64,000 bases of DNA from Terriglobia bacterium (GTDB lineage: Bacteria > Acidobacteriota > Terriglobia > Bryobacterales > Bryobacteraceae), in NCBI GenBank assembly GCA_963767545.1, contig CAVYEV010000018.1:84142-148141 (forward strand), in the 5' to 3' direction. Below the pieces are notes generated by a model, which ran no database searches, was not told the origin of the DNA, and saw only the letters and a list, made by a program, of their open reading frames with translations. The translations under genes and the position numbers were made by a program. This document shows, piece after piece, positions 57,864-64,000 of this stretch (position 1 is the stretch's first letter; every line of letters begins with the position of its first letter).

Positions 57864-58400
57864 CTATTTTAGCGCGTGAGCGCGCATCCTTACCCATGCG
57901 GAATTGTCTTCGAAACGATTACGTCGCCGCAGGCATTGCGGATAAGATGTCATCGCCAACATGAACTTCTCCAATGTAGTATTTGTTGAAGCGCTTCCTT
58001 CGGATCGATTCCCTTCGCTAAAGAGTTCATCCAGAATGGTTGTGCGACCGATCTGGATATTCCTCACCCTCACACGAATTCCATTGATCCGTTCATCCGT
58101 GAGCATCGCCGCTTTATCGGGCAGGCCCATCCGGAACGGCGATTCGAGAGATGCCTGTCGTCCAAAGACCAGTACCGGCGTCCGGTTCAGTAATCGGTCG
58201 GGCCGTCGCAAAGGATGAATCGCATGTCGCTGTCGCCACGGCAGCAAACCGGTTTATTGTCCTAAAAGTCGCGGAGCTAGGGCGCGATGTGCAGATCGGG
58301 AGCGGTTCTCACTCCTCTTCTCGCGCGGTCAGCCTTGCATTGACCACGAAAGCGGCCGGGAAAGATAGCGACTAGCCCTATTGTCCGCTGACCCCCGAGG
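57864..58400 (-). pseudogene. relic of a MORC/HATPase_c_3-type (GHKL) ATP-binding protein, truncated at both ends and frameshifted
   Basis: INGIRVRVRNIQIGRTTILDELFSEGN / RKRFNKYYIGEVHVGDDIL / RRNRFEDNSAW lie in three frames. They follow the GIRxRxxNIxIGD..LF.E.RFN.Y.IGE.H...IPNARRDxFExN pattern that I recall from HATPase_c_3 defence-island proteins. There is no room for the ATPase N-domain. Confidence 0.35.
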
Positions 58401-58474
58401 TCTAGGACGCAGCTACAGAGACAAATTATTCCTCAGAACATCAAATGCCGGCCGGTCCAGTATGTCTAGTGCGG

Positions 58475-59487
58475 TTATGAATGTTTTTTCTCAAGGGCAG
58501 CGATTCGAAGTGCAATCTTCCGAAGTTCATAGAGAAGCTTGTCACGACTCTGCTAGGGCACGATGCCAGCAGCGTGTCGATTTCTGGCTCGGTTATCCAT
58601 TTCCGGAAGGCTGTTGCTCGCTTGTAGGGAACGCTGTCCGCACCCGAATCCACAGCCCTCTCATGGGCATCCGCCAGCGTAACTTTGCCCTCGGCAAACC
58701 TTTTTAGCACTACCGGCGATGCGCACACTACTGGAAGTTGGTCGCGCAAGTCCATGGCGCGCTCGATGTCGCCGTTCTTTATGCTTTCGACGACCAGGCT
58801 ATCCATCCCGGGATGTTGATTCCGGGCCTTCTTTATCTTGTTCGACTTGATATTCGTCGTAGTAACTCCACCGGTTGATGTCAACCTCGTCATGATCGAC
58901 CATGAACTGGTAGGTGTCAATGAGATGGCCGACTTTCTTCGAGCTCAGGCCAAGTTCGGATGCGAGAACGCTCGCGGACACATTATGCGTTTTGAGCGAC
59001 GGTAGAGAAAGCCAGCCTGTTCGTACGGTGCCCAATCCTTCTTTCCTTTGATGTGGAACTGTCCGAGAAGTGCAAAAATGAGCGATTCTTTCACGTCTGC
59101 CGGCAGTACAGTGCATTTGACTTCTGCCCATTTGATGGGTTCCTTAGCGGCGAGCTGCCTGTAGGCCGCCAGACGGCTGTTACCTTCCAGTACATCGAGC
59201 GTACCATCCCGAACCATCAAGGGTTCAAGCAGTCCGCCATTACGCCGGATGTCGTCACGAAGCTCTCGGACATGGTCTAGCTCGCTCAGTTGTTCTTGAA
59301 TCTCTTCCTGCGTCGGCACTTTGCCATTAGCACGCACGACAGAATAGACCCGGGGATTGTCCGCATAGAACTTGAGAGTGCTTTGCTTCAGCAACTGCGT
59401 TGTCGTGGGCACTTTCGCGCCAAGAATCACGATGGACTCACCGGTCGACGCGGGGATGCTTCCTTTGTTGGTATCAGGCATTGTCAT
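58475..59487 (-). pseudogene. ParB/Srx-like N-terminal domain protein, paralog of 61378..62391 (2-3 frameshifts)
   Basis: ATG 59487 overlaps the SNF2 stop. YADNPRVYS, NGGLLEPLMVRDGTLDVLEGNSRLAAYRQL (ParB-box-like) and WAPYEQAGFLY. It continues in ORFs 58799..59131 and 58441..58920. The likely true end, LLYELRKIALRIAALEKKHS-stop at 58475, is in a third frame. Confidence 0.55.
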
Positions 59488-60957
59488 GGTTTCCGTCGAG
59501 GCCGAGCACATCGCGTATCATTGCGCCGTATGCGTAGTTGGCCTGCTTAGAGTATTCGTCCAAGGTTATGTCGCCTTGGCCGAGCTGCGCCGCGAGGTGT
59601 TTTGCGGCCAGCAGAACATCGACCCATTCGTCGATGGTGTTGCTCGCGATGAGGTTCGTAACGTAGCAGGAGCGCGTCTGTGAAATCCGATGAATGCGGT
59701 CCTGCGCCTGCAGGTAGTCGTCAAGGCTGAAGGACCTGTCATAAAAAACAGCGTGGTTGGCGACGGTCAGCGTCAGCCCTTCTTTCGCTGCAGCCGGTGT
59801 AGCAATAAGAATCTTGCAGCTAGGATCGGTTTTGAAGCTCTTAATTGAGGGTCACGCTCAAAGATGCTGCGTTTACCGTGGACCCTGACAGCGCCGAAGT
59901 CCGCCAGCTCCCGCGCCAGCCAATCGACGTTGTCGGTGAAAGAAGTCCAGACGATCATCTTCTCCCCAACATCGACAGCGGCATGGACAAGGTTCAGAAG
60001 GATCTCGAACTTTCCGGGAATGGCGCGGTACGAATCGTCGACCAGAATCGGATTGGACGCGACTTGCACGAGGCGCATCAGGCGCTTAAGCATTTCCTCT
60101 GCGTCATCCAGCACCGCTTTGCCGTCCTTCACGACTATTGCGGACATTTCCTTTTGGAAATGCTTGTAAATTTCGCTCTGCCAGGATTCGAGCTCTACCT
60201 CGACATTGCGCAGCTCCTTTTCCGGCAGGGTTATTTCGACGGTACCCTTCGTTTCGCGAACGGTGAAGGGGGCGATTCGCGCGAAGACGCCGGCGAGCGC
60301 GCGTTGGAAGCGGTCCACGCGGTACGGGTCCGAAACGAGGTCGTTCGTGAGATCGAGATCGCGTTTGAAATCGTTGAAATCGGGTCCGAGCGCCACGCCG
60401 CCATCGAGAAACCGAATCTGAGCCCAAATGTCATAGGGGCGGTTCGCCACGGGAGTCCCCGTCATGATGAGCCGCCGGGTAAAGCCGGTGCCAAGCGAGA
60501 ACAGGACCTTCGCTATCGAGGAGTCCGGGTTTTTGATCTTGTGAGCTTCATCAAGCAGGACCCCAACCCTGCGTGTGCGCAGGAAAAGCGCGAGGCGTTT
60601 TTGCTCCGACTTTAGAACTTCGTAATGGGCGAGATAGATCCGGGCAGGGCTGTTGAACGCGAAAAAATTGGCTCGCTTGTCCTGACTCAGCAGCCGTGGC
60701 TCTAGATGCGTGTGGATTTTGAGTTCGTCCTTCCAGTTCCGCAGCAGCCCTTTTTTGGTCACGATGATGACGGAATCCACGATGTCGTGAGTCAGCCAGT
60801 AGAGGGCGAGATCGACCCCTATTTTCGTCTTGCCCAAGCCCTGTTCGTGAAACACTGCGGAGTAGGGGAGGTCCTTGACGGCTTCGAGTGCTTCCACCTG
60901 GTAGACGAATCCACCGTGCTTGGCTGTGAAGTCTGCTGGGCGATGGGTTTTCAGCAT
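59474..60957 (-). CDS. compact SNF2-family ATPase/helicase (1 frameshift near 59855)
   Basis: Motif I HEQGLGKT, II LLDEAHKIKN, III MTGTPVANRPYDIW. After the frame change come KILIATPAAAKEGLTLTVANHAVFYDRSFSLDDYLQAQDRIHRISQTR (motifs IV-VI). It ends GNHDNA-stop at 59474. Confidence 0.8.
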
Positions 60958-62391: not shown

Positions 62392-62601
62392 ATGTATTGT
62401 TTCTCGCGCTGGTAGTAAATTATGGCAGATCAGATGCCTCTGCGCTCGATACGCTAAAGTGTTGATGACAGGCGGTTTTGTCTGTTTTACCGAGACTGGC
62501 AAGCGCGGCTTCCAAAAGCGCATCGGATGGCTGACAAATCTGCATTGGATAACTGCAACTTCGGTCTCCGCCGCTGCCGAAAATGCTGATATGATTGGTC
62601 C

Positions 62602-63634
62602 GTGACCTTCGACGGTATCCTTGGAATGTCGGCCGGGCGGGAAGTTTTTCTCGGTTTCGCGCCAGCTAACGTGTTGCACGCCTTTGAGCTTCGCGGACGT
62701 GCTCGATGAAGATACCGGACGCGGATACCAGCGCCGTTTCAATTCTGCGCATAGCCTCGATTTCCGGAGATATATCCAGCAGGACAACAGCTCAACGATC
62801 CCGCTGACGTTCAACGCCCGCAAGCGGACGGACGGGGCGTGGCGCATCGAACGTCTGAAGTCTCCCCACGCGCGGATGATAATCGCATCCGAAGGCCAGA
62901 AAATTGTTCACCCAGGTGGACTGCCAGCACCGCCTCGGGCACCTTAATGATTTGTACTCGAGCTGCCGTTCATGTGCTTCATCGGGCTGACGGAACGCGA
63001 GGAGATGGAGGTCTTCAACGTCATTAACAGCAAGGCGAAGGGACTGAGCACGAGCCTGCTGGATTTCCACGACGCACGCTGGCGCGCGATCTGGCTGCCG
63101 AGCGGCCGGAGCTTTTCATCGCCCTGCACCTCAACAATGAAGCCAGTCCCCGTGGTATCGACCAACTCGACCTCGGCGGCAACATAACCTCCGGGCTGAC
63201 CCGGCGCGCTTCGCTGCGCACGATGCAGAAGGCGATAAAGCGGTTCCTTACGCAGACCAAGATTCTCCATAAGCAGCGCCCTGAAGTGGTCGCGCAGATG
63301 GTGCTGGATTTCTGGGCGGCCGTCGCCCTGTTTGCTGCGCGATGCATGGGACAACCCTCGGAGAACTCTTCTTTGCAAAGGCGTCGGCGTTTACGCGCTG
63401 ATGGGCATCGCAGGTGACCTGGTTAACGAGGCGGGACCGCCGGCGATCGACAAGCGTATTTCAGCAACAAGCTCGCGGATTTCATTCTGGAAGTCGACTG
63501 GAGCAACAGATGGGCCGCTTCAGCGGCCTGGGCGGAGAGGCCGGGGTCAAGGCTGCCTCAATGCCCTCCGCGCTGGAGCGCGGAACGGAAAGCTGCAGGG
63601 TGATCTCAAATGGCTAACAAAAACATCCTCCTGA
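62602..63634 (+). pseudogene. DndB-like DGQHR-domain protein (motif reads DCQHR), at least 6 frameshifts
   Basis: Colinear pieces are FDGILGMSAGREVFLGFAPANVLHA / SFADVLDEDTGRGYQRRFNSAHSLDFRRYI / KLFTQVDCQHRLGHLNDL / LELPFMCFIGLTEREEMEVFNVINSKAKGLSTSLLDFHDA / LARDLAAERPELFIALHLNNEA / LGGNITSGLTRRASLRTMQKAIKRFL..VLDFWAAV / KGVGVYALMGIAGDLVNEAG. The start could be GTG 62602 or ATG 62591/62626. Confidence 0.55.
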
Positions 63635-64000
63635 TCGAGCCCGGCTACAAGAACAAGTACCCGCCGCTCGGCCTGATGAAGATCGCTCAGTATCACGGCC
63701 CTCACGGCAAAGGGACAGGGTCAGGTTCATCAAGGGTGAGGATGACCTTCGGTCTTTGGGACCGCATGGGACCGGATCTACATCACGACGCTCTTCTCCT
63801 TCGAATTCGCGCGGATAAGCACAGAGCATCGACTTCGCGCTGAGGGTCGCGAACGGTCACGCCGACAAAATTTTCGTCGGCGGCATCGCGGCTTCACTGA
63901 TGCCCGAGCGGTTCGTCGAGAACCGAGCTGGCACGGCATCCGGTTCATCAGGGGCCTGCTGACGGGCCCCCGTCAAATCCCTCCAGCTCGACGAATTCTC
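63610..64000 (+). pseudogene. B12-binding-domain-like N-terminus of a probable radical SAM enzyme (at least 3 frameshifts; 3' end outside window)
   Basis: MANKNILLIEPGYKNKYPPLGLMKIAQYHG, then in other frames DRVRFIKGEDD, WDRIYITTLFSFEFARI and IDFALRVANGHADKIFVGGIAASLMPERF. This follows the pattern of class-B rSAM B12-binding domains. No CxxxCxxC is visible within the window. Confidence 0.3.

What the first reader, a model, noticed from the sequence alone, without database searches (positions are those of the whole stretch)
57864..64000. Candidate uncharacterised DNA-modification/defence-type island next to dnaE
About 6 kb lying directly upstream of the dnaE start contains three ParB/Srx-superfamily proteins: two paralogous ParB-like proteins and one DndB-like DGQHR protein. 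It also has a compact SNF2 ATPase, a 136-aa PD-(D/E)XK-like protein, a B12/radical-SAM-like gene and an MORC/GHKL-like relic. These domains are individually typical of Dnd/Dpd-type modification systems and helicase-nuclease defence systems. The combination and order do not match canonical Dnd, Ssp, Dpd, BREX, DISARM, Druantia or Zorya layouts as I know them. Spot GC counts on 60-nt lines are 38-48% inside the island (58441, 60121, 62161) against 67% at 44041, which suggests horizontal acquisition. The right border lies beyond the window.
Basis: partly seen in the sequence, partly recalled or inferred. Interest (0 to 1): 0.85.

Follow-up and report, generated by a model that had tools for sequence, protein, structure and literature searches.

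The report
Uncatalogued radical-SAM/ParB/SNF2 conflict island
The 6 kb next to dnaE holds one copy, full of frameshifts and cut off by the window end, of a conserved and horizontally mobile gene cassette (radical-SAM enzyme, GHKL ATPase, DndB-like protein, two ParB-like proteins, a small nuclease and an SNF2 motor) that matches no named defence or DNA-modification system and may be a new kind of restriction-modification-like immunity.

Summary
On the minus strand lie two paralogous ParB-like genes flanking a 136-aa PD-(D/E)XK-type protein and a 494-aa SNF2 ATPase. Transcribed divergently are a DGQHR/DndB-like gene and the N-terminus of a radical-SAM enzyme. An 83-codon relic of a GHKL ATPase abuts dnaE.

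The set is not a chance juxtaposition. In 54 species genomes with full flanks, ParB-small-SNF2-ParB is collinear in 52-54, with the radical-SAM gene in 51 and its GHKL partner in 49. Carriers span more than a dozen phyla and 12 plasmids. Radical-SAM and GHKL form an invariant pair that also occurs with other nuclease/motor modules (PIN-GHKL2, NurA-HerA).

PADLOC, NCBIfam, Pfam, RefSeq product names and ten full-text searches gave no named system.

Not supported: the GC argument (56.4% against 58.1%) and the specific "MORC" label (the ATPase domain is Hsp90/HtpG-like).

This copy carries many single-base indels, as does dnaE, so they are probably assembly errors.

Best model, inferred and not shown: a Dnd/Dpd-like two-module system in which DGQHR-radical-SAM-GHKL marks DNA and ParB-nuclease-SNF2 attacks DNA.

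The parts
57882..58130 (-). Relic of 83 codons of a second GHKL ATPase paralog ('GHKL2'). It corresponds to residues 295-375 of 518. The ATPase domain and the C-terminus are missing. It is the remnant of a PIN-GHKL2 module that neighbours the system in relatives.
   Evidence: tblastn E 3e-22 and 61% identity to L009:18337-19893. 77% nucleotide identity to L009. The intact paralog hits HATPase_c_3 and its partner hits PIN_8. The module is seen on plasmids.
58475..59481 (-). ParB-like protein 'ParBb' (about 336 aa), last gene of the four-gene operon. It has three frameshifts, near 58990, 58848 and 58545. The EGNSR motif is present.
   Evidence: tblastn to the L001 ortholog, E 2e-151. Segment coordinates. 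Paralog of ParBa. RefSeq name 'ParB N-terminal domain-containing protein'.
59474..60957 (-). Compact SNF2-family ATPase (about 494 aa) with one frameshift near 59840-59850. It overlaps the ParBb start by 8 nt.
   Evidence: Pfam SNF2-rel_dom E 9e-30. The ortholog also has Helicase_C at 2e-18. The best PADLOC hit is the helicase part of ZorD at 7e-42. Coordinates.
60964..61374 (-). 136-aa stand-alone PD-(D/E)XK-type putative nuclease, intact.
   Evidence: Invariant E3, H7, D33, P51-D52, G66-E67-A68-K69-T70, D73 and Q82. AlphaFold2 pLDDT 87.8. Foldseek top hits are CdiA-CT, SfsA, the Can2 nuclease domain, AF1548 and EndoMS, at E about 3e-3 and TM 0.46-0.50. 601 clusters at 50% identity at E<=1e-10; of the best 150 listed, nearly all are stand-alone proteins of similar length.
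61378..62388 (-). ParB-like protein 'ParBa' (337 aa), intact, first gene of the operon. It carries NPR, EGNTR and an HTH-like segment.
   Evidence: More than 1500 homologs of 337-341 aa. 8 of 19 members hit Pfam ParB_N, best E 2.5e-6. Invariant columns.
62389..62625 (.). Divergent intergenic region between ParBa and the DndB-like gene. It holds conserved motifs TCTGCCATAATTTAC (about 62417-62431) and GTTGCAG-N9-ATGCAG (about 62540-62560). It is a probable promoter/operator.
   Evidence: Alignment of 7 related loci. The sigma-70 consensus scan found nothing there.
62626..63617 (+). DGQHR/DndB-like protein (about 330 aa). The DCQHR motif is at 62919-62933. It is interrupted by 14 indel columns relative to a 91%-identical relative.
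   Evidence: TIGR03187 E 9e-5 on a fragment and 1.2e-38 on the L001 ortholog. tblastn across three frames. Indel map. Motif coordinates.
63610..64000 (+). 5' end (about 130 of 542 codons) of the radical-SAM enzyme, covering the B12-binding-like N domain only. It is frameshifted and runs off the window. By synteny, the rest of this gene and a 518-aa GHKL ATPase gene should follow.
   Evidence: tblastn to L001/L004 orthologs. Orthologs carry CIRKCTFC, Pfam Radical_SAM and a fold match to AprD4/MtaB at E 1.4e-5. The GHKL gene follows in 24 of 24 and 49 of 54 loci.

Best explanation
The island is one copy of a conserved, horizontally mobile conflict system that acts on DNA and is built from two operons.

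Module M is DGQHR/DndB-like (optional), then radical-SAM enzyme, then GHKL ATPase. I propose it is the DNA-marking or DNA-sensing half. The GHKL ATPase and the DGQHR NTPase would load or hold the radical-SAM enzyme on DNA, where it installs a SAM-radical-dependent covalent change. This parallels DpdB, the DGQHR ATPase that is required for DpdA to insert preQ0 into DNA, and the DndB/DndCDE arrangement.

Module R is ParBa, then PD-(D/E)XK nuclease, then SNF2 ATPase, then ParBb. I propose it is the attacking half. The two ParB paralogs would form an NTP-gated DNA clamp that recruits a split ZorD-like translocase and nuclease pair to cut DNA whose mark status is wrong.

Shown here: the gene content, domain identities, intact catalytic motifs in orthologs, tight operon structure, strong co-occurrence, modular shuffling, phyletic patchiness, and absence from the catalogues searched.

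Inferred: that the substrate is DNA, that the radical-SAM product is a self-mark, and that the outcome is defence.

The copy in this window is riddled with single-base indels. These are most likely sequencing or assembly errors, so its activity cannot be judged.
For: Co-occurrence:
- Anchored on ParBa in 54 species genomes with full flanks: small protein 54, SNF2 53, ParBb 52, radical-SAM 51, GHKL 49, DGQHR 17.
- ORF clustering of 85 loci finds no other family in more than 7 loci.
- Anchored on the radical-SAM gene in 24 metagenome loci with at least 8 kb on each side: GHKL 24 of 24, SNF2 16, ParB 17.

Asymmetry of the kind seen in restriction-modification systems:
- Module R almost never occurs without radical-SAM plus GHKL (3 of 54).
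- Radical-SAM plus GHKL occurs without module R in about one third of loci, and on pNL1.

Modularity:
- The relative position and orientation of the two operons vary (same strand upstream 20, same strand downstream 16, divergent 6, convergent 6) while each operon's internal order is fixed.
- Genes overlap by 4-23 nt.

Intact enzymes in orthologs: CX3CX2C; SNF2 motifs GLGKT, DEAH and QAQDR; GHKL motifs ExxxNxxD, DNGTG and GFRGVGRLAG; DCQHR; EGN(T/S)R; PD...EAK.

DGQHR precedent: DpdB is an ATPase needed for DNA modification by DpdA (PMC10164549).

Mobility and context:
- More than a dozen phyla and 12 plasmids.
- Different flanks in close copies.
- Flanks include Mokosh and MADS genes, toxin-antitoxin pairs, integrases and IS elements.

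Not catalogued; generic RefSeq names; ten full-text searches.
Against: - No experiment and no modified base is known for this system.
- Radical-SAM enzymes are not known as the self-marking enzyme of any restriction-modification system.
- The DGQHR gene is missing from two thirds of ParBa-anchored loci (17 of 54), so it is not essential to the proposed marking step.
- The GHKL family also pairs with a PIN protein, and radical-SAM plus GHKL pairs with NurA-HerA. That fits a 'sensor/switch plus effector' logic as well as it fits 'modification plus restriction'.
- Three full-flank genomes have ParB-small-SNF2(-ParB) without radical-SAM within 10 kb (L059, L078, L084).
- The fold evidence for the nuclease is weak (E about 3e-3).
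- The ParB assignment rests on modest Pfam E-values. No similarity between the ParBs and the DGQHR protein was detectable by hhalign.
Confidence: 0.45

Rival explanations
1. Sensor/effector system without self-marking. The GHKL ATPase would be an infection-triggered switch that activates its partner enzyme: the radical-SAM enzyme here, a PIN nuclease in the GHKL2 module. The radical-SAM enzyme would make an antiviral nucleotide analogue, as viperin does, or damage nucleic acid directly. ParB-nuclease-SNF2 or NurA-HerA would be co-effectors that degrade invader DNA.
For: - Radical-SAM plus GHKL is the invariant dyad, combined with alternative nuclease/motor modules: ParB-PD-(D/E)XK-SNF2-ParB, PIN-GHKL2 and NurA-HerA.
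- A paralogous GHKL pairs with a PIN_8 protein instead of a radical-SAM enzyme.
- The best structural neighbour is AprD4, a radical-SAM diol dehydratase acting on a sugar.
- The DGQHR gene is dispensable in most lineages.
Against: - When a DGQHR protein is present it always sits directly upstream of the radical-SAM gene, and its characterised relatives (DndB, DpdB) belong to DNA-modification machines.
- The dependency asymmetry fits restriction-modification logic equally well.
- No nucleotide-binding or cyclase-type signalling component was found.
Confidence: 0.25
2. Cargo serving a mobile element rather than the host. This could be plasmid/ICE maintenance, entry exclusion or anti-restriction, for example hypermodification of the element's own DNA, or ParB-based partition or silencing.
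For: - 12 plasmids carry it, 7 of them conjugative.
- Neighbours include toxin-antitoxin pairs, integrases, IS elements, and SRAP, ArdC-like and DUF736/DUF1173 genes typical of conjugative elements.
- A few IMG/VR contigs carry it.
- Distant radical-SAM homologs sit in phage genomes.
Against: - Most carriers are chromosomal loci in unrelated contexts.
- No ParA, relaxase or replication gene belongs to the conserved set.
- NCBIfam partition-ParB models are far below cut-off (19 bits against 58).
- A nuclease plus an SNF2 motor is not a partition toolkit.
Confidence: 0.12
3. The copy in this window is a dead, decaying remnant, with real frameshifts rather than sequencing errors. On this view nothing functions here, whatever the family does elsewhere.
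For: - 22 indel columns (about 20 single-base events) in 1.4 kb of DndB-like plus radical-SAM, against none in the 1.4 kb of ParBa plus small protein, measured against a 91%-identical relative.
- 3 frameshifts in ParBb and 1 in SNF2.
- A genuinely truncated GHKL2 relic lies next door.
Against: - Substitutions in the broken genes are still concentrated at third codon positions: 0.17 against 0.015-0.047 in DndB-like, the same pattern as in intact ParBa. Selection therefore acted until very recently.
- The essential dnaE next door is also broken by frameshifts and in-frame stops. That points to an error-prone assembly.
Confidence: 0.25
4. Chance juxtaposition of unrelated genes with defence-like domains.
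For: None beyond the fact that each domain is common on its own.
Against: Collinear conservation in at least 50 species genomes from many phyla. Overlapping reading frames.
Confidence: 0.01

Closest known systems
Dpd (7-deazaguanine) restriction-modification system
   Same: - A DGQHR/ParB-superfamily protein sits beside the putative DNA-modifying enzyme. DpdB is an ATPase required for DpdA activity (PMC10164549).
- A separate restriction half contains SNF2-type helicases (DpdE).
- The two-module logic is shared.
- The DGQHR protein's best named hit is DpdB, and the SNF2 protein hits DpdE models.
   Different: - There is no TGT-family DpdA, no DpdC, and no DpdD-K set.
- The enzyme here is a radical-SAM protein with a GHKL ATPase partner.
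- The DpdB and DpdE matches are far below NCBIfam cut-offs: 54.8 against 300 bits, and 33 against 500.
- The restriction half uses two ParB paralogs and a minimal nuclease.
Dnd/Ssp phosphorothioate systems
   Same: - The layout DndB-like regulator/NTPase, then Fe-S enzyme, then DNA-acting ATPase resembles DndB with DndC (Fe-S) and DndD (an ATPase).
- The modification module pairs with interchangeable restriction modules, as with DndFGH, PbeABCD and SspE.
   Different: - There are no DndA, DndC, DndD or DndE homologs.
- PF14072 scores just under its gathering score (28.7 against 29.1).
- TIGR03233 DndB gave no hit for the 329-aa protein.
- The Fe-S enzyme is a true radical-SAM TIM barrel, not a PP-loop protein.
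ZorD of type I Zorya, and DrmD of DISARM (SNF2 effectors)
   Same: - The SNF2 core is most similar to the helicase part of ZorD (PADLOC 7e-42).
- ZorD fuses SNF2 to an Mrr-like PD-(D/E)XK nuclease. Here the small nuclease gene directly precedes the SNF2 gene.
   Different: - ZorABC, DrmABC and a methyltransferase are absent.
- The protein is only the 494-aa motor core.
- NCBIfam scores are 80 against 1500 (ZorD) and 51 against 950 (DrmD).
ParB/Srx CTP-gated DNA clamps (ParB, Noc, KorB) and ParB-like nucleases/NTPases
   Same: - An N-terminal ParB domain has conserved NPR and GxxR-type (EGNTR/EGNSR) motifs, followed by an HTH-like segment.
- Two paralogs suggest a heterodimeric clamp.
   Different: - There is no ParA and no known parS.
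- Partition models are far below threshold.
- There is no detectable sequence match to solved ParB structures.
- NTP binding is untested.
B12-domain-like radical-SAM enzymes (AprD4) and MiaB/RimO/MtaB methylthiotransferases
   Same: - The two-domain architecture is shared: a flavodoxin/B12-binding-like N domain plus a radical-SAM barrel.
- Foldseek gives E 1.4e-5 to AprD4 and 1.6e-5 to MtaB.
- Sequence hits to RimO/MiaB surround the CX3CX2C motif.
   Different: - The N domain has no cysteines, so it lacks the auxiliary cluster of methylthiotransferases.
- There is no evidence for cobalamin binding.
- It has a roughly 170-aa helical C-terminal extension and an obligate GHKL neighbour.
Prokaryotic MORC/paraMORC GHKL ATPases of restriction-modification-like operons (Iyer et al. 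2008, PMC2292703)
   Same: A HATPase_c_3-type GHKL ATPase sits in operons with SNF2 helicases and nucleases.
   Different: - The nearest solved relatives of the ATPase domain are HtpG/Hsp90/TRAP1, and no MORC appears in the top 60.
- That paper does not mention radical-SAM, ParB or DndB partners.

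Membership tests
Dpd system | DpdA, a TGT-family DNA transglycosylase | tested here: not met
   No TGT-family or DpdA hit for any of the seven orthologous proteins in Pfam, NCBIfam or PADLOC.
Dpd system | DpdB equivalog (NF041060, cut-off 300 bits) | tested here: not met
   54.8 bits, E 7e-15. 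This shows domain-level relatedness only.
Dpd system | DpdE equivalog (NF041062, cut-off 500 bits) and the DpdD-K set | tested here: not met
   33 bits for the SNF2 protein. No other Dpd restriction genes are among the conserved neighbours.
Dnd phosphorothioation | DndC, DndD and DndE (with DndA) are present | tested here: not met
   No hits. The conserved set contains none of them.
Dnd phosphorothioation | DndB equivalog (TIGR03233) or Pfam DndB above its gathering score | tested here: not met
   PF14072 scores 28.7 against 29.1. TIGR03233 is not hit by the 329-aa protein.
DGQHR domain family (TIGR03187; ParB/Srx superfamily) | The domain model is matched above cut-off (58.85 bits), with a conserved D-x-Q-H-R motif | tested here: met
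   133.5 bits, E 1.2e-38 for the ortholog. D98, Q100, H101 and R102 are invariant. DCQHR is present in the window at 62919-62933, in another reading frame. The window fragments themselves score only 22 bits because of frameshifts.
ParB N-terminal domain family (PF02195) | Match to the ParB_N model, and the conserved GxxR motif | tested here: inconclusive
   The window proteins are below threshold (E 0.07). 8 of 19 family members match, best E 2.5e-6. RefSeq names one ortholog 'ParB N-terminal domain-containing protein'. EGNTR and EGNSR are invariant. No structure was predicted.
ParABS partition system | A ParA ATPase partner and a partition-type ParB (TIGR00180, cut-off 58 bits) | tested here: not met
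   19 bits. No ParA is in the conserved gene set.
Radical SAM superfamily | A CX3CX2C cluster motif in a TIM-barrel core | tested here: met
   This is met in full-length orthologs. CIRKCTFC is invariant (C175, C179, C182). Pfam gives E 4.6e-5, and PF04055 hits are precomputed for many members. The fold matches AprD4 and MtaB. The motif lies beyond base 64000, so it cannot be seen in the window itself.
Cobalamin-dependent (class B) radical SAM | Cobalamin binding by the N-terminal domain | not testable with these tools
   Only the fold class of the N domain is recovered. The top structural match, AprD4, has a B12-like domain; as I recall, it does not use cobalamin. NCBIfam hits to B12 radical-SAM models are weak and far below cut-off.
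MiaB/RimO methylthiotransferases | Three-cysteine auxiliary cluster in the N-terminal UPF0004 domain | tested here: not met
   There is no cysteine in residues 1-170. The only invariant cysteines are C175, C179, C182, C268 and C281.
PD-(D/E)XK nuclease superfamily | An alpha-beta-beta-beta-alpha-beta core, with D at the start of strand 2 and (D/E)xK in strand 3 | tested here: met
   The model has this topology, with P51-D52 before strand 53-57 and E67-A68-K69 at the end of strand 63-68. Fold hits are weak (E about 3e-3) but are mostly PD-(D/E)XK proteins. Nuclease activity is untested.
SNF2 family ATPases | SNF2-rel_dom plus Helicase_C, with motifs I, II and VI | tested here: met
   102.9 and 66.8 bits. 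GLGKT, DEAH and QAQDRIHR are seen in the sequence.
MORC ATPases | GHKL ATPase specifically related to MORC, with an S5-fold transducer domain | tested here: inconclusive
   HATPase_c_3 is matched. A profile search of PDB returns only Hsp90-family N domains in the top 60, best 1e-13. The middle and C-terminal domains were not modelled.
Zorya, DISARM, BREX, Druantia | The signature genes ZorAB, DrmABC, PglZ/BrxC and DruA-E | tested here: not met
   PADLOC and NCBIfam hits are confined to the shared SNF2 core, far below cut-offs. No such genes are in the conserved set.

The most novel reading that the evidence does not exclude
DGQHR, radical-SAM and GHKL together form a DNA-writing machine that installs a previously unknown radical-SAM-dependent covalent modification on genomic DNA as a self-mark. 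A ParB-family NTP-gated clamp pair then directs an SNF2 translocase and a minimal nuclease against DNA that lacks the mark. This would be a chemically new class of restriction-modification immunity. It would also be the first use of ParB clamps as the target-recognition arm of a defence system.
Probability: 0.3. Interest if true: 0.9.

Novelty: new variant of a known kind. Interest (0 to 1): 0.72.

Why it matters
If the model is right, three things follow.
- The chemical repertoire of bacterial self/non-self DNA marking, so far methylation, phosphorothioation and 7-deazaguanine, would gain radical-SAM chemistry.
- ParB-type clamps and Hsp90-like GHKL ATPases would gain a role in immunity.
- A widespread family would be defined: more than a dozen phyla, soil Acidobacteriota, rhizobial and sphingomonad plasmids, and Dehalococcoidia. 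Current defence finders would likely miss this family.

Even if the marking idea is wrong, the invariant radical-SAM/GHKL dyad combined with three alternative nuclease-motor modules is a clear, testable unit. Culturable carriers are available: Rhizobium leguminosarum WSM1325 pR132505, Novosphingobium aromaticivorans pNL1, Paraburkholderia solisilvae and Rhizobium grahamii.

Tried and rejected
- **GC or oligonucleotide skew as evidence of acquisition.** The island is within the window's normal range.
- **MORC identity of the GHKL protein.** Only Hsp90-family relatives appear among solved structures.
- **Methylthiotransferase identity of the radical-SAM enzyme.** There is no N-terminal cysteine triad.
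- **Direct profile-profile link between the ParB paralogs and the DGQHR protein.** None was detectable. Their shared superfamily rests on published classification.
- **Sequence search of ParBa, ParBb and DGQHR profiles against PDB.** No significant hits.
- **Literature.** Ten full-text searches and five papers were used. Two look-ups for Iyer et al. 2013 (NAR 41:7635) failed because it is not held. No description of this gene set was found.
- **A ParBa-nuclease fusion (P0399) as Rosetta-stone evidence.** The linker looks like a frameshifted read-through, so I discarded it.
- **Promoter/terminator and tRNA scans.** They gave nothing informative for borders or att sites.
- **BFVD fold search of the radical-SAM model.** Only generic phage radical-SAM proteins came up.
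- **PADLOC scan of 122 flanking proteins.** It shows some known defence genes (Mokosh, MADS, PD-T4-6/PglW-like kinases), but I had no baseline, so I treat this as weak context only.

Full report
**1. What is in the window**

ORF listing and six-frame translation of 57.4-64 kb, plus tblastn with intact orthologs from related contigs, give this map.

- dnaE ends its 5' part at 57823(-). Its N-terminus matches DNA polymerase III alpha structures at E 5e-22.
- 57882-58130(-): a fragment of a GHKL ATPase.
- 58475-59481(-): ParB-like 'ParBb'.
- 59474-60957(-): SNF2 ATPase.
- 60964-61374(-): a 136-aa protein.
- 61378-62388(-): ParB-like 'ParBa'.
- 62389-62625: a 237-bp divergent intergenic region.
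- 62626-63617(+): a DGQHR/DndB-like gene.
- 63610-64000(+): the first ~130 codons of a radical-SAM enzyme, cut off by the window end.

Three qualifications apply.

- The radical-SAM core (CX3CX2C at residues 175-182 of the ortholog) lies outside the window. Only the B12-binding-like N domain is inside it.
- ParBb, SNF2, the DndB-like gene and the radical-SAM gene are broken by indels.
- The GHKL 'relic' is not a remnant of the system's own GHKL gene (see section 4).

**2. Domain identities**

*SNF2.* Pfam SNF2-rel_dom scores E 9e-30 in the window. The intact 494-aa ortholog adds Helicase_C. It is only the motor core.

*DGQHR protein.* TIGR03187 scores 133.5 bits against a cut-off of 58.85 in the ortholog. 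D-C-Q-H-R is invariant across 17 family members.

*ParBa and ParBb.* They are clear paralogs (hhalign 99.3%, E 6e-21 over 234 columns). 8 of 19 ParBa relatives hit Pfam ParB_N, best E 2.5e-6. RefSeq calls some orthologs 'ParB N-terminal domain-containing protein'. The invariant NPR and EGN(T/S)R motifs look like derived ParB boxes. I could not link them to the DGQHR family by profile comparison. 'Three ParB/Srx-superfamily proteins' therefore holds through separate family assignments, not through a direct comparison made here.

*The 136-aa protein.* It has invariant E3, P51-D52, E67-A68-K69 and Q82. The model is confident (pLDDT 87.8) and has the alpha-beta-beta-beta-alpha-beta topology. Its best PDB matches are weak (E about 3e-3, TM 0.46-0.50) but are mostly PD-(D/E)XK nucleases: CdiA-CT, SfsA, Can2, AF1548 and EndoMS. 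An exhaustive HMM search finds 601 clusters at 50% identity at E<=1e-10; among the 150 best hits listed, nearly all are stand-alone proteins of 130-146 aa.

*The radical-SAM enzyme.* The ortholog is 542 aa with CIRKCTFC. Pfam Radical_SAM scores E 4.6e-5, just below the gathering score. Sequence hits to RimO/MiaB are confined to the cluster motif. Its AlphaFold2 model (pLDDT 74.6) matches AprD4 and MtaB (E 1.4e-5 and 1.6e-5). That architecture is a flavodoxin/B12-like N domain plus a radical-SAM barrel. The N domain has no cysteine, so it is not a methylthiotransferase. Cobalamin use is undetermined.

*The system's GHKL ATPase.* It is 518 aa and lies beyond the window. It matches HATPase_c_3, and the Bergerat motifs are conserved. 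Its nearest solved relatives are HtpG/Hsp90/TRAP1 (best 1e-13), not MORC.

**3. Is the combination real?**

Yes. ParBa has more than 1500 database relatives of the same length.

An 88%-identical relative (L001) carries DndB-like, radical-SAM and GHKL divergent from ParBa-small-SNF2-ParBb, with overlapping reading frames. A Mesorhizobium contig (L004) has all seven genes collinear.

A pattern scan of one genome per species (185,579 species) found 154 stretches that encode a ParBa relative. Record titles name these groups:
- Acidobacteriota, alpha-, beta- and gamma-proteobacteria, and Dehalococcoidia
- Binatia, Verrucomicrobiota, Planctomycetota and Gemmatimonadota
- Eremiobacterota, Fimbriimonadaceae, Acidimicrobiia and Spirochaetota
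- Fervidobacterium, Atribacterota, Poribacteria, Myxococcota and Desulfuromonadaceae
- two rhizobial plasmids

In the 54 loci with full flanks the counts are: small protein 54, SNF2 53, ParBb 52, radical-SAM 51, GHKL 49, DGQHR 17. In an all-against-all clustering of ORFs from 85 loci, no other family occurs in more than 7 loci.

The four-gene operon is always collinear. The radical-SAM-then-GHKL pair is always adjacent. The pair sits upstream on the same strand (20), downstream on the same strand (16), divergent (6) or convergent (6).

Anchoring on the radical-SAM gene in metagenome contigs gives GHKL in 24 of 24 loci with at least 8 kb on each side. The ParB/SNF2 module appears in only about two thirds of them.

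The dependency is therefore asymmetric. The ParB-nuclease-SNF2 module almost never occurs without the radical-SAM/GHKL dyad. The dyad does occur without that module.

**4. The wider family of modules**

The relic at 57882-58130 matches residues 295-375 of a second GHKL paralog (61% aa identity, E 3e-22; 77% nt identity). That paralog forms a two-gene module with a partner protein that often carries a PIN_8 domain.

This PIN-GHKL2 module lies next to the system in several genomes. It is also found on plasmids pR132505, p187_1 and pNL1. pNL1 has PIN-GHKL2-DGQHR-radical-SAM-GHKL but no ParB/SNF2 module.

In IMG/VR contigs, more distant GHKL-then-radical-SAM pairs are preceded by HerA (E 2e-39 to PDB 7f6d_B) and a NurA-like protein (E 0.003). 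A radical-SAM homolog in Marinitoga camini virus 1 lies next to genes annotated HerA and NurA-like.

There is also a variant of the ParB module with SNF2 and three ParB paralogs.

So the invariant unit is radical-SAM plus GHKL, combined with alternative nuclease/motor modules.

**5. Is it known?**

For the seven intact orthologs, PADLOC-DB v2 gives only domain-level hits.
- The SNF2 protein hits ZorD, DpdE, DrmD, HmaA and BrxH.
- The DGQHR protein hits DpdB.
- The ParB paralogs hit PD-Lambda-5_A and PDC-M38A only weakly.
- The radical-SAM, GHKL and small proteins hit nothing.

NCBIfam release 20 gives no match above any curated cut-off except the generic DGQHR domain.

RefSeq annotation on 12 plasmids uses only generic names: 'radical SAM protein', 'DGQHR domain-containing protein', 'ATP-binding protein', 'DEAD/DEAH box helicase' and 'hypothetical protein'.

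Ten full-text searches and five papers read found no description of this gene set. One likely source, Iyer et al. 2013 (NAR 41:7635), is not held, so prior mention cannot be excluded.

**6. Horizontal acquisition**

The GC argument fails. But the island averages 56.35% against 58.1% elsewhere, and 8.7% of equal-size windows are as low. The fraction of low-GC lines is similar inside and outside the island. Tetranucleotide distance is about 2 sd.

Mobility is nonetheless supported.
- Copies that are 76-84% identical (L006, L001) share homology with the window only across the island, not the flanks.
- The distribution is patchy across phyla.
- 12 plasmids carry it, 7 of them conjugative.
- Neighbours include integrases, IS elements, toxin-antitoxin pairs, and in a few loci Mokosh and MADS genes.

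No tRNA or att-like feature was found in the window. The right border is outside it.

**7. State of this copy**

I compared the window with a 91%-identical relative (L091). ParBa, the small gene and the aligned part of SNF2 have no coding indels. The DndB-like and radical-SAM genes have 22 indel columns (about 20 events) in 1.4 kb, and these are not in homopolymers.

Substitutions in those two genes are still concentrated at third codon positions. The rates are 0.17-0.27 at third positions against 0.015-0.078 at first and second positions, the same pattern as in ParBa. Purifying selection therefore acted until very recently.

dnaE is itself split by several frameshifts and in-frame stops. The simplest reading is local sequencing or assembly error. 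Real recent decay cannot be excluded.

The GHKL2 relic, by contrast, is a true truncation on both sides.

**8. Mechanism**

*Shown:* two tightly coupled operons, intact catalytic motifs in orthologs, and the co-occurrence statistics above.

*Inferred best model (confidence about 0.45):* a Dnd/Dpd-like two-module system. DGQHR, radical-SAM and GHKL would act on DNA. The precedent is DpdB, a DGQHR ATPase required for DpdA to modify DNA (PMC10164549). From my own knowledge, radical-SAM enzymes act on DNA in spore-photoproduct lyase and in phage thymidine hypermodification. ParBa and ParBb would form an NTP-gated clamp that recruits the SNF2 motor and the small nuclease, a split ZorD-like pair. 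The asymmetric dependency and the interchangeable nuclease modules are what one sees for modification modules with alternative restriction partners.

*Main rival (about 0.25):* the GHKL protein is a switch and the radical-SAM enzyme is an effector, either viperin-like chemistry or radical damage, with no self-marking. This is favoured by the GHKL2-PIN parallel, by the NurA-HerA variant, and by the dispensability of the DGQHR gene.

*Other rivals:* a function that serves the mobile element (about 0.12), and chance juxtaposition, which is excluded.

**9. Verdict**

This is a conserved, mobile, multi-module system that acts on DNA, and I could not find it in any catalogue available here.

It is assembled from known domain types in a Dpd/Dnd-like logic. 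I therefore rate it a new variant of a known kind, with a substantial chance of new chemistry. Interest 0.72.

Noticed in passing
window 54400-57823 (-): The dnaE gene is split into at least six pieces by frameshifts and by in-frame stop codons at 56855-56857 and 57458-57460. Other runs of same-strand fragments occur at 12046-15478 and 27105-28739. Several large ORFs (987, 851, 792 and 578 aa) are intact. This suggests an assembly with unevenly distributed errors.
   Followed up: partly
window 62626-64000 compared with 60964-62388: The density of single-base indels relative to a 91%-identical relative is extremely uneven. There are 22 indel columns in DndB-like plus radical-SAM and none in ParBa plus the small gene. 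Substitutions stay biased to third codon positions in both regions. The cause is unknown: local low coverage, strain mixture, or very recent decay.
   Followed up: partly
L006:2107-5519, L012:13707-16408, L009:18337-20926; plasmids L087, L088, L090: A two-gene module recurs next to the system, and on pNL1 it accompanies the DGQHR-radical-SAM-GHKL operon in the absence of the ParB/SNF2 module. It consists of a protein of 355-680 aa, with an N-terminal PIN_8 domain in the long forms, followed by a second HATPase_c_3 GHKL ATPase. PADLOC has no significant match apart from weak TmtA hits.
   Followed up: partly
L110:5288-11257, L114:5533-11866 and related IMG/VR loci L105-L120; L086 (Marinitoga camini virus 1): A distant variant has the order NurA-like, HerA, GHKL, radical-SAM (HerA E 2e-39 to PDB 7f6d). 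It lies in virus-classified contigs, in one case followed by an integrase. The phage MCV1 radical-SAM homolog also sits beside genes annotated HerA and NurA-like.
   Followed up: partly
L004:15628-17964 (-), L087:12183-14492 (-), and L172, L192, L199, L231: A large DGQHR protein of about 770-778 aa (TIGR03187 E 5e-60, with a weak Swt1-like HEPN match at the C-terminus) often lies convergent to the GHKL gene. It may be a further accessory component.
   Followed up: no
L090, L096, L170, L179, L186, L192, L193, L203, L215: There is a second form of the ParB/SNF2 module. It has SNF2 plus three ParB-like paralogs at 27-39% identity to the reference proteins, and the small nuclease was not detected by tblastn.
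   Followed up: no
window about 62417-62431 and about 62540-62560: Two motifs are conserved in the divergent intergenic region across seven relatives: TCTGCCATAATTTAC, about 25 nt upstream of the ParBa start, and GTTGCAG-N9-ATGCAG. They are candidate promoter/operator elements, and the DGQHR protein could be the regulator.
   Followed up: partly
L009:14068-18319 (+): Between ParBb and the GHKL2 module lie two genes. One encodes a 1019-aa protein with a histidine-kinase-like C-terminus and a segment that looks to me like a double-stranded-RNA-binding motif. The other encodes a 392-aa protein that looks like a response regulator. Neither reading was checked with any tool.
   Followed up: no
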